Shown piece after piece: positions 10,709-62,523 of a DNA stretch of 64,000 bases. Under the pieces are notes generated by a model. The model was not told the origin of the DNA. It did no database searches and saw only the letters and a list, made by a program, of their open reading frames with translations. The position numbers and the translations under genes are program-made. Every line of letters begins with the position of its first letter. Position 1 is the first letter of the stretch. Source of the stretch: a virus (taxonomy: Duplodnaviria; Caudoviricetes); the IMG/VR virus record IMGVR_UViG_3300020577_003313; one strand, written 5' to 3'.

Positions 10709-13199
10709 TGTTGTCTTCGTTTGTAACTATACTTCCGTTTACGTCAAACTTTAGTCCGGTGGATGTCTCTATTCCTACTAGAGGTCCAGTCTTAGCTTCT
10801 AAAGTAGAATAACATCCTACTATTCCTGTAGTTTCATTATCATACTTGAAGTAGACAGAACCACGCTCACCGGCGCCTGATTTATTCTTCTGGAAGTCTA
10901 GCTCGATAATTGGTTTATACTTTCCAGGAGTGCCCCACTTAGCTTTAACTAGTGGATCTTTAACTGAAGTATACATACCAACTGCTTCGTTCCAGACTAC
11001 GCCTACAGTATCCATATCGAATTCGATCTTGCCTGATTCAGAAATAGATGTCAGAGTAGGTTTCTCACCTCTAGTTCTATTCTTTACCATTTCTAGGGTC
11101 ATCATTACTGTGCAAGGAACTTTAGCGCACAATGATTTTGCCCAGATAGATGAGGTAAGAATCTTGATTCTGGTATCAGAATCTGAATCATTCTTCACGT
11201 TGTGAAGAGAGTCAATACAGAATAGGATTGGATTACCTGTGGCATCCTGAGTATCTTTGATCCACTCTTCAGCTCTATTGATACTTCTGCCATACTTATC
11301 GTCTTTGAAGACGAGCTTTCTTTCTGAGGTTAAGGATCTGATTAGATCCTGCGCCTGTCTCATTTTAATGATGTCTTCTGCTGATCTCTTGACGTTATTA
11401 ATAACTTTCTTCATTGGCACACCGCTGATCATACTGACCAGTCTGTATGCAATAGACTTTCTGTTATCGTCAATAGCCCAGTAGCAGATAGCTATATCGT
11501 TATTCTTTTGAGCCATGTTAACGGCTAGGTTAAGCATGATAGCAGACTTGCCGTGCTGAGGAGCACCAGCAAAAGCAATAGCTCTACCAGCCTTCAAAGG
11601 CTTAGGAATACCATCTAGCATGGTGTCTAGAGGATCAAATCCAGTTACCCATCCGTGGATGCCCTCCTTATGGGCATTCATTTCCACGAATACATCGTCA
11701 AGGAATTCAATAGTCTCATTGACTGAGACTAGATGTCTATCCTTTTTAGTTGTATGGCTTGTCTCGATATTAGACAGAGTTTTAGATAGAACGATCTGAA
11801 GATCATCAGAGGTCTTTACTCTCTTTAGGTCCTTTAAGAGGTTCTCTCTAACTCTTTCTGCATCATTCTTTTCAAGGCGATCAATCTCTGCCTTGATATC
11901 GTCTCTTTCGATCTTTGTGTACTTGGCTAGAGTACTAATCATTTGACCGCGCTCTATCTGATCTGGCTCATTGATAATGAGCTTGATCATATTCTTGGCG
12001 AAGTTGTTAGTAAAGCCAGGATTCTGTTCAGTATCTAGGGCAGCAGAGTGTTTCTTAATTAGGTGTTCAAAAACACCTACTGGTTTTAGCTTTCTGTATT
12101 CCTGAATACCATACTTTCTGATATAGAAGTCTGGGTCATTCTGACCCTTTACTTTTCTATCTTCCTCAGACAATGGAAGATCCATTGTCGTTACCTTAAG
12201 ACCACTATACCCGGAGAACTTTTCAATATACTTCTCCATATTATTCTGGCCAGTAGAGTCTTGATCTAAGACCAGATTGATGTGCTGGAATCCTAAGTTT
12301 CTGATAATCTCTACATGGTTATCAGTTAGAGCAGTTCCGCCCAGGGCTACACAATTTCTATAACCTTCTTGCTGAGCTGTTACTGCACTACCATAGCCTT
12401 CAAAAATATCCAGTCTCATAGATCCCATCTTCTTGGCGAGATCTAGGCAGTAGAGTAGCTTATCCTTATGGTAGTAAGGGTTATCCTTGATAGAAGTATT
12501 TCTGTACTTCGGGATCTTAGATCCCTCTGTAAATAAGATGTATCTAGCCACTACACCTTTCATTACTCCGGTGTAATCTCTGATGCAGAAAGTAATAAAG
12601 TCCGGACCAAATAATTCATCCGTGATGCCCATCGACTTTAGTTCTTCTTCTGGAAGTCTAGTAGTCTTGGACAGATCTGTTAGGAACTTGGCATAGTTTT
12701 TGATAGATCCAATTCCTAAGCTCTTGCAGATTTCTCTGTTCCATCCTCTCTTTACTGCATGAGAGATGTCGGTATGAACAAAATCGTGGCTGTCTTTATC
12801 AAGACAGGTCATCAATTTATACACAGCTTCGTAGACACTATCGTACTTAAAATTAGAAAGCTGTTCGTCTGTAAACTCAATAGGCTCATACTCTACTGAA
12901 TACTTTTTGAGTATGTACTCTAGGTTGTCTCTTACAAACCCTACTCCTTGTAGTGGCTTGTCTTCTAGACAAGCTGCGGCTCCATAAATATCTGCCGACA
13001 TTCCACAAGAGAAACACTTAACATAAGTTTCATCACTATCTGGAACAAATGCACACGAAGGATTTTTATCATCATGGTCTGGGCTTATGCAACACATCCA
13101 ATCATTTGTTCCCTTCCTTACAATATTTACTCCCATGTCTTCTAGGTATTGACGAAGAAATGGTTTTCCTTTATCTACTAAGTTTTTGATATCGTTCAT
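10671..13199 (-). CDS. DNA primase-helicase fusion (CHC2 Zn finger + TOPRIM + DnaB-like)
   Basis: C-x-x-x-x-H...CFSC finger, EG...DQD TOPRIM, Walker A GAPQHGKS, ESGKIEFDMD. Confidence 0.9.
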   Translation of the reverse strand: MNDIKNLVDKGKPFLRQYLEDMGVNIVRKGTNDWMCCISPDHDDKNPSCAFVPDSDETYVKCFSCGMSADIYGAAACLEDKPLQGVGFVRDNLEYILKKYSVEYEPIEFTDEQLSNFKYDSVYEAVYKLMTCLDKDSHDFVHTDISHAVKRGWNREICKSLGIGSIKNYAKFLTDLSKTTRLPEEELKSMGITDELFGPDFITFCIRDYTGVMKGVVARYILFTEGSKIPKYRNTSIKDNPYYHKDKLLYCLDLAKKMGSMRLDIFEGYGSAVTAQQEGYRNCVALGGTALTDNHVEIIRNLGFQHINLVLDQDSTGQNNMEKYIEKFSGYSGLKVTTMDLPLSEEDRKVKGQNDPDFYIRKYGIQEYRKLKPVGVFEHLIKKHSAALDTEQNPGFTNNFAKNMIKLIINEPDQIERGQMISTLAKYTKIERDDIKAEIDRLEKNDAERVRENLLKDLKRVKTSDDLQIVLSKTLSNIETSHTTKKDRHLVSVNETIEFLDDVFVEMNAHKEGIHGWVTGFDPLDTMLDGIPKPLKAGRAIAFAGAPQHGKSAIMLNLAVNMAQKNNDIAICYWAIDDNRKSIAYRLVSMISGVPMKKVINNVKRSAEDIIKMRQAQDLIRSLTSERKLVFKDDKYGRSINRAEEWIKDTQDATGNPILFCIDSLHNVKNDSDSDTRIKILTSSIWAKSLCAKVPCTVMMTLEMVKNRTRGEKPTLTSISESGKIEFDMDTVGVVWNEAVGMYTSVKDPLVKAKWGTPGKYKPIIELDFQKNKSGAGERGSVYFKYDNETTGIVGCYSTLEAKTGPLVGIETSTGLKFDVNGSIVTNEDNIGESNEVTEWPE

Positions 13200-22364: not shown

Positions 22365-25316
22365 TTAAATGGAGCACGAGTCATTCGTGCAAAATCTTTC
22401 GCCTTTGCTCTCTTCTTTACCATCTCTCAGGTCTAATTCTCCTAGAGAATTAACATATTCATCATACTCTTGTTCTGTACAAGTTTGATACGGAGCCTGA
22501 GGATAGTTGTGATTATCCAATGGTAGGAAAGACAGAGTCTTTACATAAGGAGCGAAATATTCAATCGCGCCTAATAGATCTTTCACCTCTTCAGGTTTAA
22601 AAGTTATCGTGCAAGACACTGAGTTATCCGACCAATAATATTGTAGTTCTTTTACTAGAGTAAGCTGTTCCCATAGAGAGATGTCATACTTGCTCTTAGT
22701 AAAGTTACTTTCCCTTACAGGGAAGTAAACTACCATTGTATTCTTGTCCGTTAAAGAAGGTTCTATTCTATACCTTGCTGCTGCTAGTTTCTTTAGCAGT
22801 GGACTATTTGCGGCAACTCTAATAGTTCTCATATAGAACTCACTGTGGGTACAGTGTACACCAGGAGTCGCGCCTGCTAGTAAGCTAATAGTTCCACTAG
22901 GCTTAATAGTAGTAATCTTAAGTGATGTAGGTACGCCTAACCATCTAGAATAGATGGTATCCCAGTAATCTACAGTCTCGTAACCCTTGTCACAGAACTC
23001 AGATAGATACTTCTGAATACCAAATTTCTTAATAGCTTGCTGAATACCTGACTGAGAAGTTCCAATGCGACGATTACGGAGCATTACTTGATTAGTAGCT
23101 TCGCAGTGAGTAGGCACAAGAGTTACACTCTTCGCATACAGATACGCATACTTTAGCGTCTCGTGATAGTCTTCTGAGTTATCATGATTAGCCGGGAAAG
23201 TCTCTACTAAGCAGCACATCTCTTTGTCGTGTAGAGTCATCTCCGCGCACGGATTTACTCCAACACAATCGTCATACTTCGGATGCTTAATTTCTCTTCT
23301 TCCATCCTTAACTCGTCCAAAATGTTGGCAGTTTTCCAGTAGAATAATTCCTGGCTCACCATTCTTAGTGATGTTACCAATAATTCTGCTGAAGTTTGAA
23401 TCAGGATTTGCAGTAACAGAGTTGTTACTCATCCATCTTCTATCAGCACATTCGTCTGGATACTTTGTATAGTCTTTCATTTCTATGAACTTAGTATCTT
23501 CGATACGACCCATAGAAAGTTCGGCGCTTCTTCTTACATTACCAGCTACAACAAACTTACCGATATAATTCATGATATCGGTAATACCTACAGAATCTAA
23601 TATCTTACCATCATAGCTATCTAATAGTTTTGTGATGTTTGCGTGCCCTTCCCTTAAGGGGGCAGGACCGCTAGCTGTTCCGCCAAAGCCTTTAATAGGC
23701 GCACCTGGTCCTCTTATTTGATCATAATTGAATATGAACCATTCTTTTCTATCTTTCTGTATGTAATTATTTAGTAACAGTCTAATAGATTCTACCCAGC
23801 CTTCTCTTGAATCTGGTATAACGTAAGTAGTTAGAGGTATAGCTACATTGTAATCAGTAGGACACTTACTTATTTGTACCTTACCAGCGCCGAGTGTATC
23901 ATATCCTACACCAACACCAAGCATTAGCATGTCACAGGCCCATGCAAATGGGCCAGCAAAGTCCTTATCTATATCCTTAGTGCTAACAGTCGCACAATTA
24001 GATGTTAGTATATTATCAGCAAGAGTAAATTTTTGATATCCTGGAACAGTTGCACAATATACTATCTCTTTTCTATCTGTTTTCTCTACAGATATAACAG
24101 TCCAATATTGTAATTTTACTTCTGGATTATCTAAAAATCTTTCTCTGTGCGAATCTATTAAAAAGAAATCTTCAGTAAGTGCATTTCTATGCAAAACTAT
24201 GGACCATAACCTAGAAGGTTTGTTAGTTAAGTTAGATATTCTATCTTCTTTAGTTGGTCCATATATAGGAATACCTAAAACTGAACAAAGTTCTCTTACC
24301 TTTAAGATATTATTTTCATTTGTACTCTCTATAGAACAGCATCCAGACTTAGATACTGTACCATCAGCAGCAAAATATCCTGCTAAGAATCCATACAGAT
24401 AAGATTTATTTTCTTCTAAAGATGGAAATTCTTTAAAATAATTTGGTAGTCCGACTACTCTAATATCCTGACCTGCCTTCTGGCGGTTACAATTATTAAA
24501 ATAATCTAATAGCTGTAAGTTCTTTTCTCCACACAAAGTAACTCCGGCGGTAGCTCTTAAAGAAGCAGAAGAAAGGTTACCGTCTCCATATGTAATGCCA
24601 TGGGCTATTCCAAATGCAGAAGGGGTAATATCTTTTACTCCTTGTCCAAAGCAATATTGTAGTCTATGTATTCCCGGTCTTAATTCTACTGTAGTGAATC
24701 TAGAATAACCTTTACTTCTATATTCCTGTCTTCTATCTTTAGCAAACCAGCCATGGTCTGCTGTGGCAAATATTTCCTTTCTTAATCCAGAACGACTAAG
24801 AGTTATTTTATATAGTTCTTGGGATCCAAATGCTGTAATTGGAGCTTTTACCCACTTGCCGCCTTCTGTTAAAAGTGTAGGCTCAGTTCCTTGTAACTGA
24901 GATATTTGTTTAATGCCTTCTGAAGTAATAACTTCAGTCTCGGCAGCAAAGCAGTTATTTAGTGCAGCAGAGCCAATCCTATCTACAATAGGAGTGCCCA
25001 TAATCCACAGTCCTCTGCCAGGAGGTAGGAACTTAAAGTTCCACATCCTCTCGAACATAGCCTGTGCAGATTTTTGAGCTTTAGCAGCATCCCAAGGTAG
25101 ATGAGAATTTTTACAGTGTCTCATCTGGATAGTGAAAGAACCTTCTACACAACGCTTAATCGTGTCAAAAAATTCTTCACTAGTTCCATCTTCTTTGAGT
25201 CTTGAGTAGGTTCTCTTATAGGTAAAGTAACTGAGGGTTCCAAACCCCCAAGATGGTTGCTTACCTTGATATTTTCTTAGAAAATTTTCAGTTAATTTGA
25301 ATCTAGTTTCGGTCAT
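22365..25316 (-). CDS. nrdJ: Class II (B12-dependent) ribonucleoside-triphosphate reductase, intein-containing
   Basis: PPGRGLW, NNC, GVG, GNVRRSA, NPCAE, TIKPSGT, C-terminal CxxxxC. Confidence 0.93.
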   Translation of the reverse strand: MTETRFKLTENFLRKYQGKQPSWGFGTLSYFTYKRTYSRLKEDGTSEEFFDTIKRCVEGSFTIQMRHCKNSHLPWDAAKAQKSAQAMFERMWNFKFLPPGRGLWIMGTPIVDRIGSAALNNCFAAETEVITSEGIKQISQLQGTEPTLLTEGGKWVKAPITAFGSQELYKITLSRSGLRKEIFATADHGWFAKDRRQEYRSKGYSRFTTVELRPGIHRLQYCFGQGVKDITPSAFGIAHGITYGDGNLSSASLRATAGVTLCGEKNLQLLDYFNNCNRQKAGQDIRVVGLPNYFKEFPSLEENKSYLYGFLAGYFAADGTVSKSGCCSIESTNENNILKVRELCSVLGIPIYGPTKEDRISNLTNKPSRLWSIVLHRNALTEDFFLIDSHRERFLDNPEVKLQYWTVISVEKTDRKEIVYCATVPGYQKFTLADNILTSNCATVSTKDIDKDFAGPFAWACDMLMLGVGVGYDTLGAGKVQISKCPTDYNVAIPLTTYVIPDSREGWVESIRLLLNNYIQKDRKEWFIFNYDQIRGPGAPIKGFGGTASGPAPLREGHANITKLLDSYDGKILDSVGITDIMNYIGKFVVAGNVRRSAELSMGRIEDTKFIEMKDYTKYPDECADRRWMSNNSVTANPDSNFSRIIGNITKNGEPGIILLENCQHFGRVKDGRREIKHPKYDDCVGVNPCAEMTLHDKEMCCLVETFPANHDNSEDYHETLKYAYLYAKSVTLVPTHCEATNQVMLRNRRIGTSQSGIQQAIKKFGIQKYLSEFCDKGYETVDYWDTIYSRWLGVPTSLKITTIKPSGTISLLAGATPGVHCTHSEFYMRTIRVAANSPLLKKLAAARYRIEPSLTDKNTMVVYFPVRESNFTKSKYDISLWEQLTLVKELQYYWSDNSVSCTITFKPEEVKDLLGAIEYFAPYVKTLSFLPLDNHNYPQAPYQTCTEQEYDEYVNSLGELDLRDGKEESKGERFCTNDSCSI
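23997..24953 (-). mobile_element. Intein (319 aa) with LAGLIDADG homing endonuclease in nrdJ
   Basis: Starts CFAAETEV after AALNN, ends ILTSN before C+1; blocks GITYGDG and LAGYFAADG. Confidence 0.9.
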
Positions 25317-57023: not shown

Positions 57024-57830
57024 TTACGACTTTACTTTAACTGTGTAACTGTCTGTGGTATAAATATTACCAAAATATCTGTATAATTCTTCCATTCCTT
57101 TGGAATAGATACCATGCGTGGTATACAGATTCAGCGTAGCGTTCTTATATTTTTCTTTGATGACTTTTGCTGCGCCAATGAAGGTTCCTCCTCCATCGCA
57201 GATATCATCCAAGATTAACATAGTATGAAATTCTTGTTCTGTACTACCCATAGCACCATCATCAAGAATCTTGAATTGACTAAGATTCCCGGTCGCCGGG
57301 TCTCTAACTTTGCACATTACAATGGTTCTCATAGAACCAATGAATGGTTTGTATCTCTTGGCAGCTCCCTCATCTGGGAGAATAATACAGTCTGCGTTAG
57401 TCTCTTTGATAACCTTATTGATGATAAGGGTCAGAAGATCTCTTCGTACAGAAAATACAGATTTGTCGAAGCAAGCAGCAAGAACATTAGAATGAGGATC
57501 AATTGTAGCAATCTCTTTAACACGACCATCAAAAAGCTTGGCGATCGTTCTAACAGATAATCCGGCTCCGTCTTCTGTGGCTCTGTCTTGTCTTGCATAA
57601 GGAAAATATGGAATGAACAGAGTCTCTACGTCTAAGCCCTTATCTTTTAGGATATCCAAGGCTAAAATTGCCCGCATAATTTTAGTTGGATTTTCAATAT
57701 CAATCCTAATAGTATAAGGAATTTCGGCTACTTCACGGAGCCGCGCTCCTATCTCTCCGCCAGGAAATTCCCAGAATTCAAACATCTCTTCAAGACGACA
57801 GGTATTTCCTAGACCGATGACAGATTTCAT
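57024..57830 (-). CDS. prs: Ribose-phosphate pyrophosphokinase-like enzyme (probable Adps of NARP1)
   Basis: FPGGE, PYFPYARQDR, DPHS, PDEGA, DDICDGGGT, THG. Confidence 0.88.
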   Translation of the reverse strand: MKSVIGLGNTCRLEEMFEFWEFPGGEIGARLREVAEIPYTIRIDIENPTKIMRAILALDILKDKGLDVETLFIPYFPYARQDRATEDGAGLSVRTIAKLFDGRVKEIATIDPHSNVLAACFDKSVFSVRRDLLTLIINKVIKETNADCIILPDEGAAKRYKPFIGSMRTIVMCKVRDPATGNLSQFKILDDGAMGSTEQEFHTMLILDDICDGGGTFIGAAKVIKEKYKNATLNLYTTHGIYSKGMEELYRYFGNIYTTDSYTVKVKS

Positions 57831-57832
57831 AG

Positions 57833-58051
57833 TTAATTAGAGAGAGGATTGTTGATTAGATTAGTTAGAGCTTCAACCACAAGACTAGCTTGCTCTTTTG
57901 TCATAATCAGCCTAAGACTTGACTGACTAGAATCATTGATCTCAATCAAGTCAAGCCCGTCACGATCGGGCATAACTGTAATATGAGTTCCGTTTTTGTT
58001 ATCAAAAATTCGGTAGTGAGTCTCAAGCTCAAAATTAGGAACGTTTGTCAT
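57833..58051 (-). CDS. Hypothetical protein
   Basis: ORF; DRDGLDLIEI. Confidence 0.55.
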   Translation of the reverse strand: MTNVPNFELETHYRIFDNKNGTHITVMPDRDGLDLIEINDSSQSSLRLIMTKEQASLVVEALTNLINNPLSN

Positions 58052-58217
58052 TTAATTTCTTATTAGGTGGTGATATAACTTTATAGCACATTCCGCACTC
58101 AGGACAGTAGGCTATATTTGGGGTATCCTCTATCATCTTAGTATTTCTAAGACCACAGTAAGTACACATATACCCCACTTCATCTATTTCCGGTATTTCA
58201 TCTTCTTCTTCGTTCAT
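58035..58217 (-). CDS. Small Zn-ribbon protein
   Basis: CTYC...CPEC. Confidence 0.55.
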   Translation of the reverse strand: MNEEEDEIPEIDEVGYMCTYCGLRNTKMIEDTPNIAYCPECGMCYKVISPPNKKLNDKRS

Positions 58218-58235
58218 AGAAAGTCAAGATTTAGA

Positions 58236-58312
58236 TGGTGGCTCGGATGGGACTTGAACCCATACTTGACTGATTTTAAGTCAGTTGCCTCTGCCAATTG
58301 GGCTACTGAGCC
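58236..58312 (-). tRNA. tRNA-Leu(TAA) with short variable loop
   Basis: GGCTCAG...ACTGA-CTTAAAA-TCAGT-CAAGT-ATGGG-TTCAAGT-CCCAT-CCGAGCC-A-CCA. Confidence 0.85.
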
Positions 58313-58313
58313 A

Positions 58314-58419
58314 TGGTAGGCCGGGTGGGACTCGAACCCACGATCATCCGCAAATCAGGCGGCTCCATTTCTGGGCCGGATTATAAATCCGGTGCATTAA
58401 CCAACTATGCTACCGGCCT
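58314..58419 (-). tRNA. tRNA-Ile(TAT) with a 34-nt two-hairpin variable region
   Basis: AGGCCGG acceptor, GCAT/ATGC D stem, CCGGA-TTTATAA-TCCGG, GTGGG-TTCGAGT-CCCAC, ACCA. Confidence 0.8.
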
Positions 58420-58457
58420 TTATTTCCGGTCAATGCACCCGAGCAGTTGAAGCTCTA

Positions 58458-58685
58458 TCAGTCTCTAGAACGCTTAACTATATCTCTACCAGCAAGAAGA
58501 ACTGAAACATTCAATCCTATTACAACTAATGTAACCATACAAAATGATATGAATTCGTTAGAAAATTCAATTTCTGGAATTCCTAATCTATGTAAGGTAT
58601 GTACATATATTCCATTGGTAAAAGCAGTTAATGTCCCTACTAAGGCTAGATAGAATAGCCAAGGATGATTAGTAGCTTTCATCAC
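58458..58685 (-). CDS. Small two-TM membrane protein
   Basis: Hydrophobic helices. Confidence 0.55.
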   Translation of the reverse strand: MMKATNHPWLFYLALVGTLTAFTNGIYVHTLHRLGIPEIEFSNEFISFCMVTLVVIGLNVSVLLAGRDIVKRSRD

Positions 58686-58939
58686 TCTTTTAGAACTTCT
58701 TTAAGAAAGTCTACGAAAATGTTTAAGTGATCTTCTGCGAACTTTCTGTCAATTTCTTTCGCTTCTTCAGAAAGTTCTGAGTAAGGCTTGAAATATCCTT
58801 GCCATCTAGTCACTATACTTGGGTTAAGTTCTGGATGTGCTTTTAGCACAGTCTCTGCCCAAAACCACCAGTGCTCATGAACTTTCTTTGCTAGTCTTTC
58901 TTTTAGAACTTCTTGGATAGGGTTCTTCCACTTCTTCAT
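58682..58939 (-). CDS. Hypothetical protein (RyR-repeat-like PYSELSEEAKEIDR motif)
   Basis: HE.W...PY.EL.E..K..DR. Confidence 0.55.
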   Translation of the reverse strand: MKKWKNPIQEVLKERLAKKVHEHWWFWAETVLKAHPELNPSIVTRWQGYFKPYSELSEEAKEIDRKFAEDHLNIFVDFLKEVLKE

Positions 58940-59574
58940 TGTAGTAATTTAATAGTTAACCGATCGCTCGCATAGATAAATCCATTAAGAGGATCAACTC
59001 TTAATGCTTGAGCTTCTACGAAACAATCTAAAAGCGCCGGATCCGGATACACTTGCATTACTACTGAAAAGATATCATGAAGGTAAGGACCAACCTGAAC
59101 CTGCTGCACTACCATAGGTAGTGCTAGAACATAATCCTGTGCAGAATTGACAAAAAACTCGTCGAATCCAGGAAATCCACCTGGTATTAGAGTAGAATAA
59201 GCAATAGGATAGCAACCCCAGGACCATGGTTGGTTAAACCCTATAGCAAATACAGGCATGTAAATGCCTGAAGTATTGCAGTTCAGGTAAGGACAGATAA
59301 ACCCCATACTGTAAAAGTATAGTAGACCGCCCAGGGACACCCCAAGATGTTGGGTAGGGCACCCTACAGGAGCTGGAGTATCTGTATAACACTGAATAGT
59401 CTGGGCACCAGCAATATTACTAGTTATGTATTGATGATTAGTTATCATCCCTACAGAAGTTAAATTATTCTGTGCTGAGCATGTTATTGCCAAAACTAAC
59501 GATAGAATCAATTTATTGATCATTGTATTATTCCAATTTATTCCCAGCACAAAAGAAAGCTCACTCAGGCTCAA
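58936..59574 (-). CDS. Secreted protein with a Planctomycetota-type C-terminal motif
   Basis: Signal peptide MINKLILSLVLAITCSAQ; C-terminus PDPALL...AQA..VDP...SD.L. Confidence 0.55.
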   Translation of the reverse strand: MSLSELSFVLGINWNNTMINKLILSLVLAITCSAQNNLTSVGMITNHQYITSNIAGAQTIQCYTDTPAPVGCPTQHLGVSLGGLLYFYSMGFICPYLNCNTSGIYMPVFAIGFNQPWSWGCYPIAYSTLIPGGFPGFDEFFVNSAQDYVLALPMVVQQVQVGPYLHDIFSVVMQVYPDPALLDCFVEAQALRVDPLNGFIYASDRLTIKLLQ

Positions 59575-59879
59575 GCCTGAGGAGCAGCAGCTACAGCACT
59601 AGAGAGTGAATCCGTGATTGACTGAAGACTCTGTGTAACAGAGTTGATTTCAGCTGGGCTTGGAGCACTAGCTAGCTTAGCTGTTAGACTCTGAAGGGTA
59701 GCTACAGCTTGGCCTACTGTGGCCTGTAAGGCTGTAACTTGGCTTACTAACGCTTGAAGTTCTGTGGTCATGGTTTGATCTCTTTTTTGAATTTCCCTAA
59801 GTGCTTTGAAAATATTGTCTAATCTTCTCCCAAGAGGAGCGATTAGCCAACAATACTTAGGGTTATTAAATTTGCTCAT
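59571..59879 (-). CDS. Ala/Gln-rich coiled-coil protein
   Basis: Heptad pattern. Confidence 0.6.
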   Translation of the reverse strand: MSKFNNPKYCWLIAPLGRRLDNIFKALREIQKRDQTMTTELQALVSQVTALQATVGQAVATLQSLTAKLASAPSPAEINSVTQSLQSITDSLSSAVAAAPQA

Positions 59880-59895
59880 GTTTTACTTACTGAAA

Positions 59896-59969
59896 TGGTG
59901 CCGGATAAAAGAATCGAACTTTTGATTGAGGTTTACAAAACCACTGGTATGCCACTTACCTAATCCGGC
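59896..59969 (-). tRNA. tRNA-Thr(TGT)
   Basis: GCCGGAT...GTGGT-TTTGTAA-ACCTC...AAAAG-TTCGATT-CTTTT-ATCCGGC-A-CCA. Confidence 0.85.
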
Positions 59970-59978
59970 GCAGTTAAG

Positions 59979-60170
59979 CTAGTCTATTAGAAATTTACCC
60001 GAAATCCCAAAATAATCAAGAATAGCTCTTCTAACTTCTGGAGACTGTTTTTGTGCCCATTCAATTAATTTGATTTTCTCTTTATTGCGTCCGATATCAC
60101 TAGCAATAACCCAGACACATAAGGCTGCCATAGCCACCATGAATATACAACATAAAAGCTCAATCCCCAT
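59979..60170 (-). CDS. Small membrane protein
   Basis: N-terminal TM. Confidence 0.5.
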   Translation of the reverse strand: MGIELLCCIFMVAMAALCVWVIASDIGRNKEKIKLIEWAQKQSPEVRRAILDYFGISGKFLID

Positions 60171-60351
60171 AAGGTTTTCTACCTACTTCGTATTGAAGCG
60201 CAAGAATAGGCCATGTAAAAAAGATTACAATTGATATAGCAATTAGCTCATAAACAGGAACTTTCTTATACTTTGTTTCATCAATAATTATGAAAATCGA
60301 ACTAATTAGCCAACCAAGAATCCAGACGGCCAGTCCAATGTAAAAAAGCAT
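60160..60351 (-). CDS. Small two-TM membrane protein
   Basis: Hydrophobic, FFTWPI. Confidence 0.55.
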   Translation of the reverse strand: MLFYIGLAVWILGWLISSIFIIIDETKYKKVPVYELIAISIVIFFTWPILALQYEVGRKPYGD

Positions 60352-60617
60352 TATGTTTTCCAGGTAGTGTCTGCTAGTTGTTTTCTGTCGATCCAGGGAT
60401 TTCTTCCATCACCTGATCCCCAGCATTGATTGCAGATATCCATAGTAGGTTTACTAACACCCATGCCACCTCTCCAGGTGGCACCATTTGGATAGCAACA
60501 AACACCAGATCCAAAACACTTCAAACAAGGATGCTTGATATTTCTAAGAGCCAAAAGATCATTGTATGAGTAGTTCTTATCATCTGGATTTGAAGGTATT
60601 CTAGTAAAGAATCTCAT
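60351..60617 (-). CDS. DnaJ-type CxxCxGxG Zn-finger protein
   Basis: CLKCFGSG...CNQCWGSG. Confidence 0.65.
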   Translation of the reverse strand: MRFFTRIPSNPDDKNYSYNDLLALRNIKHPCLKCFGSGVCCYPNGATWRGGMGVSKPTMDICNQCWGSGDGRNPWIDRKQLADTTWKT

Positions 60618-60633
60618 ACGGATTAAGAATTAG

Positions 60634-60860
60634 AAAAAAATAGATCGAAGCTAAATCAGTGCTAAAACTAATTTTTGAGGAATGAGTTTTAGTTGCGCAC
60701 AGGAACCGGTGAGCTAATTTCGGTGTTTATGAGATTCTGAATCATTTTACATCCTCGCCGAACGGCGATTATGCTGGTTTATTCAGATATCGTATATCAT
60801 TTATTTTTATCTAGCTTTTTCAAGCTAAATAGAAATAAGCACCGACTAGCTTCGATCTAT
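60634..60860 (-). ncRNA. Predicted structured RNA (~225 nt) closed by a ~23-bp stem and U tract
   Basis: Terminal arms 60838-60860 and 60640-60663; internal GAAA-capped hairpin and further stems; G.U pairs only on the minus strand. Confidence 0.65.
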
Positions 60861-60868
60861 AGATGTTG

Positions 60869-61309
60869 TTACTCGATATGAGTCACAACATTGTACTCGT
60901 CAATCTCGTCTTGAAGCGCGGCAATTCGCGCCTCGATATCCGAGATCATAGATGCTTGGGTTGCCTTGTCGATACCGACAAGGACATCAACATAGACTTC
61001 ACTGGAATAACTACCCTTCGGCACTGGAGTGCCACTAGTAGTCAGGCCCTTGATCAGTCCCAGGGTAGATCTAAGCTGGTCCATCCTGGCCAGCTTTTCG
61101 GCAATAGGAGCCGACGCCTTGGCAATTTTGCCCTTTAAGGTAGCCAGCTGAACACTGGCTTCTGTGTAAGAAGCATATGCCTTCTTAATGTCGGTCTTTC
61201 CGCCGACATCGTCCACTCTCTGGACGTTTTCCTTGGTAATCAACTCCTTGAGAGAGTTGATGGCCTTGAGATAGCGATTCTTTTCTTTAAGAGCTCGTGC
61301 GATGTTCAT
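60869..61309 (-). CDS. DIP1984/septicolysin-like helical protein
   Basis: MNIARALKEKNR...LATLKGKI...IAALQDEIDEYNVVTHIE matches the family N- and C-terminal pattern. Confidence 0.55.
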   Translation of the reverse strand: MNIARALKEKNRYLKAINSLKELITKENVQRVDDVGGKTDIKKAYASYTEASVQLATLKGKIAKASAPIAEKLARMDQLRSTLGLIKGLTTSGTPVPKGSYSSEVYVDVLVGIDKATQASMISDIEARIAALQDEIDEYNVVTHIE

Positions 61310-61341
61310 ATAAACGTGATATGTGTATATTATTATTTATG

Positions 61342-61421
61342 TGGTCCCTAGGGTGGGAATTGAACCCACATGTATCCAATTAACCTTTCTATCGCGTATC
61401 AGGCGAAGGGTATACCTAGGG
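61342..61421 (-). tRNA. Atypical D-armless tRNA-Ile(GAT)-like gene
   Basis: CCCTAGG/CCTAGGG acceptor, TCGC-CTGATAC-GCGA, GTGGG-TTCAATT-CCCAC, A-CCA; no D arm 5' of the anticodon. Confidence 0.65.
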
Positions 61422-61428
61422 TAAAACT

Positions 61429-61899
61429 ATGAATCAATGTCAAAATAAAGACTGCAACAAAGAGACTAAAAATCCAAGATTTTGCTCAAAATCCTGTTCT
61501 GCAATAGTAACAGGATCAGAAAGTCATAAACGAAAAAGAACTAAAACTTGTAAAGTATGTAGTGCTTTAATTACGTCAGAAAAAACTTTCTGTAGTAATC
61601 TCTGTTACTCTAAAGGTAGAGCAAAACGAAGAACTACTAAGCCAATTGGTTATGAGAGAGTAAAAAATTTCAGAGCTAGATTGAAGCAACAAAGTATTGA
61701 CTACAAAGGCGGAAAATGTAGTATTTGTGCTTACTCTAAATGTACAAAAGCTCTTGAGTTTCACCATTTAGATCCTACTCAAAAGGATTTTGTAATCAGT
61801 AGTGTTTCTAAATCATTTGAAGCAATAAAATATGAACTAGATAAGTGTATTTTAGTTTGTGCAAATTGTCATAGAGAAATACATGACAAAATGCTCTAA
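61429..61899 (+). CDS. Free-standing HNH endonuclease
   Basis: FCSKSC/FCSNLC fingers, GGKCSIC, LEFHH.DP..K, CILVCANCHREIH. Confidence 0.88.
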   Translation: MNQCQNKDCNKETKNPRFCSKSCSAIVTGSESHKRKRTKTCKVCSALITSEKTFCSNLCYSKGRAKRRTTKPIGYERVKNFRARLKQQSIDYKGGKCSICAYSKCTKALEFHHLDPTQKDFVISSVSKSFEAIKYELDKCILVCANCHREIHDKML

Positions 61900-61918
61900 C
61901 CAACTGAGCTACCCAGGG
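61892..61918 (-). pseudogene. Orphan 5' half of a canonical tRNA (acceptor strand + D arm)
   Basis: CCCTGGG-TA-GCTC-AGTTGGTTA-GAGC-A; pairs with the 3' acceptor strand at 61346-61352. Confidence 0.75.
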
Positions 61919-61932
61919 TTAAGAAGAAGTCC

Positions 61933-62523
61933 TTAGACTTCTTCGATCACTTCGAAACTGTCATTGTCGAAGATGGTAAGACTAACGTTCTTAGTCTTAA
62001 GTTCGTGAAACCTTCTGAAGGTATTGATGATACTCTTCAGTTCCTTCATCTTAGCTTTGATGAACTTTTCTCCCTTTACCTTTTCCTTAAGGTTCTTGGA
62101 GACATAGTTAGTTCGCTCATATCCGAGATCATCGAGCATGATCACGAAATCTGAGTGAGACATTCCACTGTTCAAACAATTGAGAATTGTAGCTTGATTG
62201 TTCTTGAAGAACGTGCTGTGCTGAATCTTAGCACAGATCTCAATGCAGCTAAGCTTAGCTGCGTTGTAGTTTACCTTGTGGTCATTGAGGAACTTACCCC
62301 AAATATAACAACGAGGCGCGCTGATCTTGTACCTAGCCTGAAGGGCTAGACACAGCGAATTAACAGTGTGGGGGGTTTGACCTTCGAGCATACCTTCAAC
62401 GAAGGTATAGACTGCCGTGCAGAGGGTACGCCAAGAATTACGCTCCTGTCTATGCGCAACCTTGTAAATTCGTGCAGCGTCTTCGATCTTAGTTAGAAGT
62501 TCGTTCTTAACGAGAGTCGTCAT
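61933..62523 (-). CDS. Hypothetical protein
   Basis: 196-aa ORF, elevated GC3. Confidence 0.65.
   Translation of the reverse strand: MTTLVKNELLTKIEDAARIYKVAHRQERNSWRTLCTAVYTFVEGMLEGQTPHTVNSLCLALQARYKISAPRCYIWGKFLNDHKVNYNAAKLSCIEICAKIQHSTFFKNNQATILNCLNSGMSHSDFVIMLDDLGYERTNYVSKNLKEKVKGEKFIKAKMKELKSIINTFRRFHELKTKNVSLTIFDNDSFEVIEEV

What the first reader, a model, noticed from the sequence alone, without database searches (positions are those of the whole stretch)
61342..61918. HNH cassette inserted into a tRNA gene, leaving an orphan 5' half and a replacement 5' end
Seen: a clean canonical tRNA 5' half (CCCTGGG TA GCTCAGTTGGTTAGAGCA, 61918-61892) lies about 470 nt upstream of the rearranged tRNA and pairs with its 3' acceptor strand (7 pairs, one G.U). 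Between them is an antisense HNH gene. Its stop codon comes from the complement of the orphan D loop, and its ATG is 7 nt from the rearranged tRNA's 5' end. Known: free-standing homing endonucleases spread in phage tRNA regions (T4 SegB). Inference: a mobile unit of HNH plus a restructured tRNA front end cuts canonical tRNA-Ile genes and rescues function with an immune D-armless allele. Alternatively the insert is removed at the RNA level; both junctions share TT microhomology.
Basis: partly seen in the sequence, partly recalled or inferred. Interest (0 to 1): 0.8.

Follow-up and report, generated by a model that had tools for sequence, protein, structure and literature searches.

The report
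Homing endonuclease with rewired spare tRNA
A selfish DNA-cutting-enzyme gene in this phage sits between the leftover front half of an ordinary tRNA gene and a working-looking isoleucine tRNA of an unusual, rewired shape. The same pairing recurs in many unrelated phages, which suggests a mobile cassette that breaks a tRNA gene and brings its own replacement.

Summary
The minus strand carries three features:
- a 27-nt canonical tRNA 5' half (61918-61892);
- an antisense 156-aa HNH gene (plus strand 61429-61899), whose stop codon lies in the complement of the D-loop;
- 7 nt further on, a 77-nt GAU-anticodon tRNA with encoded CCA (61421-61342).

This "rearranged" tRNA was not rearranged at this locus. 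It belongs to a widespread, essentially phage-only family with Ile and Arg anticodons. In this family the D-stem strands pair around the anticodon arm and a D-loop-like segment follows it. The structure is 97.6% paired and all three new pairs covary. The "position 20" base is A in 15/15 Arg members.

The HNH belongs to a clade that lives in phage tRNA arrays (73/80 loci). It neighbours this tRNA family more often than it neighbours ordinary tRNAs (6/35 vs 8/315).

In other phages, HNH plus a spare tRNA lies between matching halves of a broken canonical tRNA. Related phages keep that tRNA intact.

Best reading: a homing-endonuclease cassette with a spare, rewired tRNA-Ile replaced a canonical tRNA gene. 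HNH specificity and immunity of the rewired allele are untested.

This scan noted both the cassette type and the tRNA family before on other DNA. I found no paper describing either.

The parts
61892..61918 (-). Orphan 5' half of a canonical tRNA: acceptor strand CCCTGGG, U8 A9, D-arm GCTC AGTTGGTTA GAGC, A26. It breaks off where the anticodon stem should begin.
   Evidence: Read directly. The 20-mer is unique in the window and absent from shuffles. Orphan halves with the same kind of consensus D-arm flank HNH cassettes in L002/L009, L077, L029, L082, L059, L064 and L007.
61429..61899 (+). HNH endonuclease gene (156 aa), antisense to the tRNAs. It has N-terminal CxxC zinc-ribbon motifs and a C-terminal HH...N...H core. 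Its last codons and TAA stop are supplied by the complement of the orphan D-arm.
   Evidence: ORF list. Matches phrog_2255 at E=1.3e-24 and seven further HNH PHROGs. Invariant H112 H113 C140 C144 C147 H148 H152 in alignment A2. Weak match to the McrA HNH (PDB 6ghc, E=0.0018). Low GC.
61422..61428 (.). 7-nt spacer (AGTTTTA on the minus strand) between the HNH start codon and the tRNA 5' end.
   Evidence: Read directly.
61345..61421 (-). Non-canonical tRNA-Ile(GAU) of the rewired (transposed) D-arm family. Coordinates: acceptor 61421-61415 with 61352-61346; U8 A9 61414-61413; helix ACC 61411-61409 with GGU 61385-61383, enclosing the anticodon arm; anticodon stem 61406-61403 with 61395-61392; loop CUGAUAC 61402-61396, anticodon GAU 61400-61398; D-loop-like UAAUUGGAUA 61382-61373; T-arm 61369-61353; discriminator A 61345.
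   Evidence: Rfam tRNA 31.5 bits. Family model R1 96.9 bits, E=8e-26. Covariation on 37 distinct members. The minimum-free-energy fold reproduces all four helices.
61342..61344 (-). Encoded 3'-terminal CCA of the tRNA.
   Evidence: Read directly. Many family members also encode CCA.

Best explanation
A free-standing HNH homing endonuclease gene from a clade that lives in phage tRNA arrays sits here with a companion tRNA-Ile(GAU). The tRNA belongs to a phage-specific family with a rewired fold. In that fold the D-stem strands pair around the anticodon arm, and a D-loop-like segment follows it in place of the variable loop.

The HNH landed in a canonical tRNA gene. That gene probably had the same acceptor stem and so was probably a tRNA-Ile. 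Only its first 27 nt remain. The rewired tRNA supplies the decoding function.

Shown:
- the anatomy of the locus;
- the tRNA family and its structure;
- the link between the HNH clade and tRNAs;
- recurrent split canonical tRNAs around [spare tRNA + HNH] in other phages;
- intact alleles in relatives of those phages.

Inferred:
- the HNH cuts canonical tRNA-gene DNA;
- HNH and tRNA move together as a unit;
- the rewired tRNA is charged and used in translation;
- its missing canonical D-arm DNA makes it refractory to the nuclease.
For: (1) The tRNA family is real.
- The motif GAAAGGNTAAT..GGNTACATG gives 45 IMG/VR loci, with 37 distinct members.
- blastn finds it in about 85 Streptomyces phages, crAss-like phages and a 462-kb phage.
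- Only 7 hits occur in 185,579 prokaryote genomes, and all are on MAG contigs.
- The structure is 97.6% paired with covariation 0.918, against 0.22 for shuffles and at most 49% paired when slid.
- The new helix pair 13-41 shows AU16 CG12 GC5 UA3 UG1. The other two pairs covary in further members: TCTCC/GAGAG, TCGCC/AGCG, TCCGC/ACGG.

(2) It behaves like a tRNA.
- Loop positions U33 and A37 are invariant in the 37-member alignment, and many members encode CCA.
- Anticodons are restricted to Ile (GAU, UAU, CAU) and Arg (ACG, UCU, UCG).
- The base after GG (the "position 20" equivalent) is A in 15/15 Arg members and U in 20/22 Ile members. The discriminator is A in 22/22 Ile members. From my own knowledge of the E. 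coli identity rules, A20 marks ArgRS recognition and A73 IleRS recognition.
- In syntenic crAss-like arrays the rewired GAU member occupies the slot that holds canonical tRNA-Ile(GAU) in relatives.

(3) The HNH clade is linked to tRNAs.
- A profile search found 536 relatives. Of the best 80 loci, 73 have tRNAs within about 800 nt, mostly Asn(GUU) and Ile.
- Twelve of the 80 carry a strong R1 hit beside the HNH.
- In loci sampled through the tRNA motif, 6/35 family members adjoin a clade HNH against 8/315 ordinary tRNAs (Fisher p=0.001).

(4) Split canonical tRNAs bracket [spare tRNA + HNH] elsewhere.
- L002/L009/L013: a split tRNA-Ile(UAU) with a rewired UAU spare.
- L029.
- L059: the closest full-length homolog of the window HNH (51%), also antisense. 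It shows a split tRNA-Asn(GUU) with an Asn(GUU) spare.
- L082 and L132.
- L064 has the window's layout: a stub, an antisense HNH whose stop lies in the complement of TAGCTCA, then a tRNA.
- L096 and L092 keep the canonical tRNA-Ile(UAU) intact. L067 has [rewired UAU + HNH + 3' remnant] instead.

(5) The HNH stretch is AT-rich against its flanks.

(6) No intron ribozyme was detected.
Against: - No 3' remnant and no HNH-less close relative of this phage was found. The insertion event is therefore inferred for this lineage, not seen.
- Most family members (29/35) have no clade HNH beside them. L005 has an identical 52-nt core and no HNH. The tRNA therefore does not depend on the nuclease.
- The order and orientation of HNH and tRNA vary between loci. 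This is awkward for a fixed cassette.
- Clade HNH genes coexist with consensus-D-arm canonical tRNAs in the same arrays, as in L092 and L096. The D-arm sequence alone therefore cannot be the target.
- The HNH-core tree is unresolved.
- Many of the loci are related crAss-like phages or come from one sample, so the counts are not independent.
- There are no cleavage, expression or charging data.
Confidence: 0.6

Rival explanations
1. Neighbours only. The HNH inserted on its own into a canonical tRNA gene that happened to lie upstream of an already resident rewired tRNA-Ile. The two are not a mobile unit. The statistical association arises because this HNH clade homes into or next to tRNA-Ile and tRNA-Asn genes, and rewired members are just one kind of tRNA-Ile.
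For: L005 carries the same tRNA core without an HNH. Most members lack an adjacent HNH. The clade's neighbours are mostly ordinary Asn(GUU) and Ile(GAU) tRNAs. The arrangement varies between loci. L114 shows an HNH alone inside a split tRNA.
Against: In L002/L009/L013, L029 and L077 the rewired tRNA lies inside the broken gene together with the HNH. The junction "C T ATG" is conserved in L009, L067, L077 and L076. The anticodon of the broken gene could be read in three lineages and matches the spare tRNA each time.
Confidence: 0.25
2. The rewired fold exists for reasons unrelated to the HNH. One possibility is escape from host tRNA-targeting defences such as anticodon or other tRNA nucleases. 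Another is escape from a phage-made tRNA-degrading activity. HNH adjacency is then a side effect of both features living in tRNA arrays. This can be true together with the best explanation.
For: The family is widespread without an HNH and is restricted to Ile and Arg anticodons. Phage tRNAs are reported to evade tRNA-targeting defences by sequence change (PMC10264068, title and abstract only). Both tRNA-Ile genes of this window are non-canonical.
Against: No defence system specific for tRNA-Ile or tRNA-Arg D-arms was examined here. Enrichment next to HNH genes, including unrelated HNH families in Streptomyces and Microbacterium phages, is not predicted by this idea.
Confidence: 0.2
3. RNA-level removal. 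The HNH stretch is an intron or is otherwise excised, joining the orphan 5' half to the downstream tRNA body.
For: The orphan acceptor strand pairs with the downstream 3' acceptor strand. tRNA genes interrupted by insertions of group-I-intron size occur in related arrays (L007, L087, L088, L115, L120).
Against: No intron family matched in the window at E<=10, or in four cassette loci at E<=0.01. The 470 nt are almost entirely antisense coding sequence. A joined product would carry both a D-arm and the transposed D-loop. The downstream gene is complete on its own and conserved as such in about 50 loci.
Confidence: 0.03
4. The 77-nt gene is not a decoding tRNA. It is instead a tRNA-like processing signal, decoy or regulator.
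For: It has no D hairpin. ARAGORN misses it. The Rfam score is only marginal. There are no expression data.
Against: The anticodon loop is conserved with U33 and A37. Anticodon class goes with the aaRS identity positions. Many members encode CCA. The rewired member replaces canonical tRNA-Ile(GAU) at the same array position. E. coli translation accepts even a fully D-armless tRNA (PMC11551756).
Confidence: 0.08

Closest known systems
Phage T4 SegB, a free-standing homing endonuclease in the T4 tRNA gene cluster (PMC2330249)
   Same: It is a selfish endonuclease gene inside a phage tRNA array. Its 27-bp recognition site includes a conserved tRNA-gene motif (the T-psi-C stem-loop). It spreads itself together with surrounding tRNA genes in co-infections (abstract).
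   Different: SegB is a GIY-YIG enzyme, not an HNH. It sits between intact genes. No broken target gene with a same-anticodon spare is described, and its companion tRNAs are canonical. Cleavage and homing are shown for SegB but not for this HNH.
mobE insertion that splits nrdA of Aeromonas phage Aeh1 into two genes that still work (recalled from memory: Friedrich et al. 2007, PNAS; not read here)
   Same: A free-standing HNH-type endonuclease gene is inserted inside a conserved phage gene without an intron, and function is preserved by another route.
   Different: There the two protein halves reassemble. Here the broken tRNA gene looks dead, and function would come from a separate spare gene carried alongside.
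Homing endonucleases encoded in group I introns of tRNA genes
   Same: The insertion lies inside a tRNA gene at or near the anticodon loop or the D/anticodon junction, and the gene is flanked by its own halves.
   Different: No ribozyme is present. The insert carries a whole tRNA gene instead of a splicing RNA.
D-armless mitochondrial tRNAs of animals such as mt-tRNA-Ser(AGY) (review PMC7609411; PMC9427863)
   Same: There is no D hairpin between the acceptor and anticodon stems.
   Different: Mitochondrial forms have lost the D-arm. This family keeps a 3-bp D-stem equivalent and a GG-containing D-loop-like segment in a different chain order. It is used, by inference, with bacterial translation machinery, for which all known tRNAs are said to be cloverleaf (PMC11551756).
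Allo-tRNAs and other (8/4, 9/3) non-canonical bacterial tRNAs (PMC5389517)
   Same: They are non-standard tRNA architectures found by metagenome mining, and gene finders often miss them.
   Different: Allo-tRNAs change the acceptor/T-stem lengths and keep a D-arm. This family has the standard 7/5 acceptor/T geometry and a relocated D-arm.

Membership tests
tRNA (Rfam RF00005; functional elongator tRNA) | 7-bp acceptor stem, discriminator base and 3' CCA | tested here: met
   CCCTAGG pairs with CCTAGGG in 7 Watson-Crick pairs, followed by A and CCA. The acceptor helix is 97.7% paired and all 7 pairs covary across the family.
tRNA (Rfam RF00005; functional elongator tRNA) | T-arm with a 5-bp stem and a GTTCRANYC loop | tested here: met
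   GTGGG TTCAATT CCCAC. 95.7% paired across the family.
tRNA (Rfam RF00005; functional elongator tRNA) | Anticodon arm with a 7-nt loop, U33 and a purine at 37 | tested here: met
   TCGC CTGATAC GCGA: 4 Watson-Crick pairs plus a U.U at 27-43. U33 and A37 are invariant in the 37-member alignment.
tRNA (Rfam RF00005; functional elongator tRNA) | D-arm hairpin between position 9 and position 26 | tested here: not met
   The Rfam alignment replaces 15 model positions with 4 nt. ARAGORN makes no call.
tRNA (Rfam RF00005; functional elongator tRNA) | Score at or above the Rfam gathering threshold | tested here: met
   31.5 bits against 29, E=0.00094. This is marginal.
tRNA (Rfam RF00005; functional elongator tRNA) | Aminoacylation and decoding on the ribosome | not testable with these tools
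   Only indirect evidence: anticodon class goes with the position-20 and discriminator bases.
   ACC (61411-61409) pairs with GGU (61385-61383). The pair is 100% paired across the family with four Watson-Crick types. Covariation of the other two pairs appears.
   TAATTGGATA CAT at 61382-61370.
   96.9 bits, E=8e-26. The window sequence was in the seed alignment, so this is partly by construction. Members outside the seed score 81-95 bits.
HNH (beta-beta-alpha-Me) endonuclease | HH...N...H catalytic motif framed by CxxC pairs | tested here: met
   H112 H113, C140, C144, C147 H148 and H152 are invariant in A2. The motif reads CANCHREIH.
HNH (beta-beta-alpha-Me) endonuclease | Significant match to curated HNH profiles | tested here: met
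   Eight HNH PHROGs match, the best at E=1.3e-24. No Pfam HNH model reached E<=0.01.
Free-standing homing endonuclease gene | Present in some genomes and absent from the same site in relatives, with the target gene intact there | tested here: inconclusive
   Met for crAss-like relatives: L096 and L092 intact against L067 and L009 interrupted. No close relative of the window phage was found.
Free-standing homing endonuclease gene | Site-specific cleavage of the endonuclease-less allele and preferential inheritance in crosses | not testable with these tools
   Needs enzyme assays and phage crosses.
Group I or group II intron in a tRNA gene | Ribozyme core detectable between the exons | tested here: not met
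   No intron family matched in window 57500-62500 at E<=10, or in L009, L082, L132 and L059 at E<=0.01.

The most novel reading that the evidence does not exclude
Homing endonucleases that recognise conserved tRNA-gene DNA have driven phage tRNA genes to change their DNA sequence while keeping their 3-D shape. The result is a natural, translationally active non-cloverleaf tRNA: the D-stem strand and D-loop are moved behind the anticodon arm. This tRNA is refractory to the nuclease and now spreads as the spare part of HNH cassettes that overwrite canonical tRNA-Ile and tRNA-Arg genes.
Probability: 0.3. Interest if true: 0.9.

Novelty: new variant of a known kind. Interest (0 to 1): 0.78.

Why it matters
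Two textbook assumptions are touched.

First, tRNAs used with bacterial ribosomes are taken to be cloverleaves. A 2024 paper states that all known bacterial tRNAs are (PMC11551756). This family would be a natural exception. It appears to keep the L-shape contacts with a different chain order. That would make it a ready-made test of which parts of tRNA architecture synthetases, RNase P, EF-Tu and the ribosome really need. It would also be a possible scaffold for orthogonal tRNAs.

Second, selfish endonucleases are thought to invade essential genes safely only inside self-splicing introns or inteins, or by sitting between genes. A cassette that breaks the target and carries a same-anticodon spare would be a third solution.

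In practice, standard tRNA finders miss or mislabel these genes. Examples are "tRNA-Phe" in Mildred21 and "tRNA-Leu" in EGole. Phage tRNA repertoires and codon-usage analyses are therefore incomplete.

Tried and rejected
- **Close relatives of this phage.** megablast of 20 kb against 50,697 phage records gave nothing. Both flanking proteins and the HNH alone in IMG/VR gave either no relatives or only 29-33% identical ones without synteny. The pre-insertion allele of this lineage therefore could not be seen.
- **Sequencing runs.** The phage occurs at low depth in wastewater and river metagenome contigs. No contig skips the HNH and no RNA run holds the stretch. This gives no conclusion on an HNH-less allele or on expression.
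- **No whole genome is held for the window.**
- **Search for an intact tRNA starting with the orphan's 26-27 nt.**
  - L151 holds a canonical CAU-anticodon tRNA with acceptor CCCTGGG/CTCAGGG.
  - L150 holds another interrupted 5' half (CCCTAGG TA GCTC AGTTGGTTA GAGC A).
  - L146-L148 hold odd tRNA-like genes.
  - None is related to the window phage, so the identity of the broken tRNA here stays open.
- **HNH-core tree.** It used 81 columns and most forks are unresolved. It cannot say whether the association with rewired tRNAs arose once or many times.
- **Tertiary Levitt-pair (15-48) covariation.** Checked by eye and found inconsistent, so it is not used.
- **Anticodon of the broken tRNA in L029 and L082.** The junctions are ambiguous, so these are counted as undetermined.
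- **Hammerhead-like reading of CUGAU...GAAA.** Rejected because no stem II forms and the loop sequence changes with the anticodon.
- **Literature.** No description was found of this tRNA family or of HNH-plus-spare-tRNA cassettes. The library lacks most subscription journals, so absence is not proof.
Full report
**What is in the window**

On the minus strand the region reads in this order:
- a gene of unknown function ending at 61933;
- CCCTGGG TA GCTC AGTTGGTTA GAGC A (61918-61892);
- about 470 nt that are the antisense of one ORF;
- AGTTTTA;
- CCCTAGG TA TACCCT TCGC CTGATAC GCGA TAGAAAGGTTAATTGGATACAT GTGGG TTCAATT CCCAC CCTAGGG A CCA (61421-61342);
- the next gene, with its ATG at 61309.

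The first piece is a textbook tRNA 5' half: acceptor strand, U8 A9, a 4-bp D-stem with an AGTTGGTTA loop, and A26. It stops where the anticodon stem should start. Its 20-nt core is unique in the window and never appears in shuffles.

The ORF (plus strand, 61429..61899, 156 aa) matches eight HNH endonuclease PHROGs, the best at E=1.3e-24. It keeps the HH...N...H core and the CxxC pairs. No Pfam HNH model reached E<=0.01. The nearest solved relative is the HNH of McrA, at E=0.0018. The last codons and the stop (ATG CTC TAA) are the complement of the orphan D-arm.

GC falls to 0.30-0.345 over the ORF, against 0.40-0.51 on both sides.

The window itself is a phage. It encodes a class II RNR with an intein, a family A polymerase, a primase-helicase, NAMPT and PRPP synthase. 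No close relative was found among sequenced phages.

**The downstream tRNA belongs to a family**

ARAGORN does not call the gene. Rfam's tRNA model scores it 31.5 bits by deleting the D-arm and inserting 18 nt before the T-arm.

blastn of the 100 nt found the same odd gene in several places:
- 84 Streptomyces phages, such as Jay2Jay;
- crAss-like phages (cr130_1 and Kehishuvirus 'tikkala');
- a 462-kb uncultured phage.

It was almost always unannotated. In the huge phage and in Kehishuvirus it sits inside tRNA arrays.

An exact motif taken from the conserved part, GAAAGGNTAATN{1,3}GGNTACATG, hit 45 IMG/VR contigs. It hit only 7 contigs among 185,579 prokaryote species genomes, and all 7 are MAG contigs.

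The 37 distinct sequences align almost without gaps. They carry anticodons GAU, UAU and CAU (Ile type) or ACG and UCU (Arg type). UCG appears in Mildred21.

**Structure of the family**

With the structure acceptor(7) / NCC...GGN' / anticodon stem(4) / T-stem(5):
- 97.6% of cells pair;
- the covariation score is 0.918, against 0.22 for shuffles;
- sliding the partners drops pairing to 49% or less.

The new helix pairs the three bases after U8-A9-U with three bases after the anticodon arm. Its first pair shows AU 16, CG 12, GC 5, UA 3 and UG 1, with no mismatch. The two GC pairs that are invariant in the seed covary in members found later:
- TCTCC/GAGAG in L129, L092 and L080;
- TCGCC/AGCG in L076;
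- TCCGC/ACGG in L007's second copy and in L056.

Thermodynamic folding of the window copy alone gives the same helices.

After the helix comes UAAUUGG(A/U)UA. This resembles a canonical D-loop (A14...G18 G19...A21; compare AGUUGGUUA in the orphan half). Then comes CAU and the T-stem.

My reading, which is inference, is that the chain order has been changed. The strand that plays D-stem 22-25 follows A9 and runs straight into the anticodon stem. The strand that plays 10-13, plus the D-loop, follows the anticodon arm and leads into the T-arm. Coaxial stacking and the GG-to-T-loop elbow contact could then be kept.

Two observations support a working D-loop and a working tRNA:
- The base after GG is A in 15/15 Arg-type members and U in 20/22 Ile-type members. 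The two exceptions are the window copy and L005.
- The discriminator is A in 22/22 Ile-type members.

From my own knowledge of the E. coli identity rules, A20 is the main ArgRS determinant outside the anticodon and A73 belongs to the IleRS set.

Many members encode CCA.

In syntenic crAss-like arrays, the slot between tRNA-Trp and tRNA-Met holds a canonical tRNA-Ile(GAU) in L096 and L067. The same slot holds the rewired GAU member in L092 and in Kehishuvirus.

**The HNH clade and tRNAs**

tblastn with the window HNH found homologs (36-63% identity) within 500 nt of family members in L002/L009/L013, L022, L014, L028 and L029.

I then sampled from the protein side. A profile of ten homologs (A2) found 536 relatives in IMG/VR. 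The 80 best were kept with 1.5-kb flanks.
- 73 of the 80 have ARAGORN tRNAs within about 800 nt, nearly all on the HNH strand.
- The nearest neighbours are dominated by Asn(GUU), Ile(GAU/UAU) and the rewired family.
- The family model R1 hits at 81 bits or more beside the HNH in 12 of the 80 loci. Weaker hits (30-54 bits) in L065, L061, L117, L111/L113 and L135 look like divergent sub-families of the same design.

In loci sampled through the tRNA motif, 6 of 35 family members are direct neighbours of a clade HNH. The figure for ordinary tRNAs is 8 of 315 (odds ratio 7.9, Fisher p=0.001). Relatedness among loci was not corrected.

Junctions are tight:
- In L009, L067, L077 and L076 the tRNA's discriminator is followed by "T ATG" of the HNH ORF.
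- In L129, L094, L080 and L111 the HNH ORF ends inside or at the 5' end of the tRNA.

Arg-type members in Streptomyces phages Mildred21 and Persimmon, and in Microbacterium phage A3Wally, also lie 0-12 nt after annotated HNH genes. Those HNHs belong to other families.

**Broken canonical tRNAs around the cassette**

| Locus | Arrangement |
|---|---|
| cr130_1, L009, L013 (crAss-like) | 5' half (AGGTGTT TA GCTC AGT(C)GGTTA GAGC A GTTGT...), then rewired tRNA(UAU), then HNH, then 3' half (ATTATAC ACAAC CGGTC GGTGG TTCGAAT CCACC AGCACCT A). The acceptor strands and anticodon-stem strands of the halves pair with each other. This is a split tRNA-Ile(UAU). TTATA is present at both junctions. |
| L096, L092 | Related arrays that hold an intact canonical tRNA-Ile(UAU) |
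| L067 | Rewired UAU tRNA + HNH, followed by a 3' remnant resembling the 3' part of that canonical tRNA |
| L077 | Keeps only the 5' remnant |
| L029 | Matching halves (GGGCCCG.../...CGGGCCC A) around rewired UAU + HNH |
| L059 | Closest full-length homolog of the window HNH (51%) and also antisense. Halves TGCTCAG.../...GTTAA GCAGC ... CTGAGCA G CCA bracket a tRNA-Asn(GUU) plus the HNH. |
| L082, L132 | Halves around canonical-type spare tRNA-Ile plus HNH |
| L066 | A tRNA-Ile(GAU) 3' remnant after HNH + tRNA-Ile(GAU) |
| L064 | Repeats the window's layout: a stub ...CCAGGG TA GCTC A, an antisense HNH whose stop lies in the complement of TAGCTCA, then a tRNA-Asn |
| L028 | Antisense HNH directly 5' of a rewired Arg tRNA, next to a complete upstream tRNA |

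The anticodon of the broken gene can be read in three lineages: the crAss-like group, L059 and L066. In each it equals that of the spare tRNA.

Nearly all remnants carry the consensus D-arm (GCTC A..GGTTA GAGC). The spare tRNAs do not. They are either rewired or have divergent D-arms. This fits, but does not prove, a recognition site that includes D-arm DNA.

No intron ribozyme was detected in the window or in four cassette loci.

**Reading of the window locus**

The orphan half is most simply the remnant of a canonical tRNA gene destroyed when the HNH arrived. The rewired tRNA-Ile(GAU), 7 nt from the HNH start, is the functional gene.

The orphan's acceptor strand (CCCTGGG) differs by one base from that of the rewired tRNA (CCCTAGG), and both pair with CCTAGGG. 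Shared or near-shared acceptor stems between canonical and rewired tRNA-Ile also occur elsewhere. TGGGATG is found in L082's canonical spare and in the rewired members of L092 and L129. L096 has TGGCATA where L092 has TGGGATG in the same slot. I therefore take the broken gene to have been a tRNA-Ile of the same lineage.

L005 has a rewired tRNA whose 52-nt core is identical to the window's. It has a diverged acceptor (CGGTAGG/CCTGCCG) and no HNH. The tRNA lineage is therefore older than this HNH insertion.

I cannot tell which of two routes applies. The HNH and the tRNA may have come in together. Alternatively the HNH may have hit a canonical neighbour of a resident rewired tRNA. No relative with the pre-insertion state was found.

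**Comparison with what is known**

T4 SegB is the closest studied system. It is a free-standing endonuclease in a tRNA cluster, it recognises a conserved tRNA-gene motif, and it drags neighbouring tRNA genes along (PMC2330249). The differences are:
- the enzyme family;
- the broken target gene with a same-anticodon spare;
- the non-cloverleaf spare.

Reviews of non-canonical tRNAs do not mention phages (PMC7609411). A 2024 study states that all known bacterial tRNAs are cloverleaf, while showing that E. coli translation accepts a D-armless tRNA (PMC11551756). I found no paper on this family or on such cassettes.

Earlier notes of this scan, read after I had reached the same reading, describe both features on other genomes:
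- the rewired Arg/Ile family: e1-5643835, e1-5703332, e1-406721, e1-282655;
- HNH-plus-spare-tRNA cassettes in split tRNA genes: e1-4035916, e1-1920040, e1-5354406, e1-4039051.

What this window adds is the two together, plus the HNH-side sampling that ties this HNH clade to the rewired family.

**Verdict**

The tRNA family and the recurrent cassette architecture are well supported by comparative data. Still inferred are HNH specificity, co-mobility, charging of the tRNA and immunity of the rewired allele.

Noticed in passing
window 58317-58419 (-): A second non-standard tRNA-Ile, with anticodon UAU. It has a normal cloverleaf (Rfam 65 bits) plus a 33-nt insertion in the variable region. The insertion folds as a CCA-GAAA-UGG hairpin and an anticodon-arm-like hairpin, CCGC CUGAUUU GCGG. 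ARAGORN misses it. Both tRNA-Ile genes of this window are therefore atypical.
   Followed up: partly
window 22365-25316 (-): The class II ribonucleotide reductase gene carries an intein with a LAGLIDADG domain (Pfam). This is another selfish element in the same phage.
   Followed up: no
L065 714-801; L070 1098-1187; L103 1746-1830; L099 962-1050: ARAGORN calls tRNAs of 85-90 nt as Asn(GUU). They have a long variable arm and a Ser/Leu-like D-arm, so they are type-II-like tRNAs with an Asn anticodon. They often lie next to the same HNH clade.
   Followed up: no
L099 1764-1849; L094 1835-1920: tRNA-Ile(GAU) genes of 86 nt with a long variable hairpin closed by a GAAA loop. L099's acceptor (CGGTAGG/CCTACCG) nearly matches that of the rewired tRNA in L005.
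   Followed up: no
L065 804-887; L117 757-840 and 851-933; L111 1041-1124; L135 2329-2410; L061 2296-2377: Weaker R1 hits (30-54 bits) that look like divergent sub-families of the rewired design, with helices CAG/CUG or CGG/CCG and a longer tail ...GUUGAAAAY before the T-stem. Most have Ile anticodons and several lie directly after an HNH gene.
   Followed up: partly
L007 (-) oriented 11910-12207; L087 738-1047 and 2026-2290; L088 221-408; L115 919-1199; L120 869-1185: tRNA genes interrupted in the anticodon loop by 115-245 nt, the size range of group I introns. Several have a GUA or UAA anticodon context. They were not checked with Rfam.
   Followed up: no
L150 4168-4194; L146, L147, L148; L151: The 5' half CCCT(A/G)GG TA GCTC AG..GGTTA GAGC recurs elsewhere. 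L150 has it as another interrupted half. L146-L148 have it in odd tRNA-like genes whose anticodon arm is replaced by a long hairpin. L151 has it in a normal CAU-anticodon tRNA.
   Followed up: partly
L003 (Streptomyces phage Jay2Jay) 660-1272: The Ile-type family member lies 13 nt after a gene annotated as nucleotidyltransferase (gp110) and has no encoded CCA. The enzyme might be a phage CCA-adding enzyme.
   Followed up: no
L076 1250-1870; L077 1203-1750; L002 1501-1884 (-): The HNH ORFs of these crAss-like contigs contain in-frame TAG codons. L077 also has a CUA-anticodon tRNA, which is consistent with TAG recoding. This explains why the cr130_1 HNH is unannotated.
   Followed up: partly
L009 about 147-151 and 660-664; L002 equivalents: The pentamer TTATA (anticodon-loop positions 33-37) is present at both junctions of the cassette in the split tRNA-Ile(UAU). 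It looks like a 5-bp target duplication and may reflect a staggered cut.
   Followed up: no
L056 1503-1578 (Mildred21); EGole gene 108: Family members are mis-annotated in GenBank records as tRNA-Phe(gaa) and tRNA-Leu. In most other records they are not annotated at all.
   Followed up: partly
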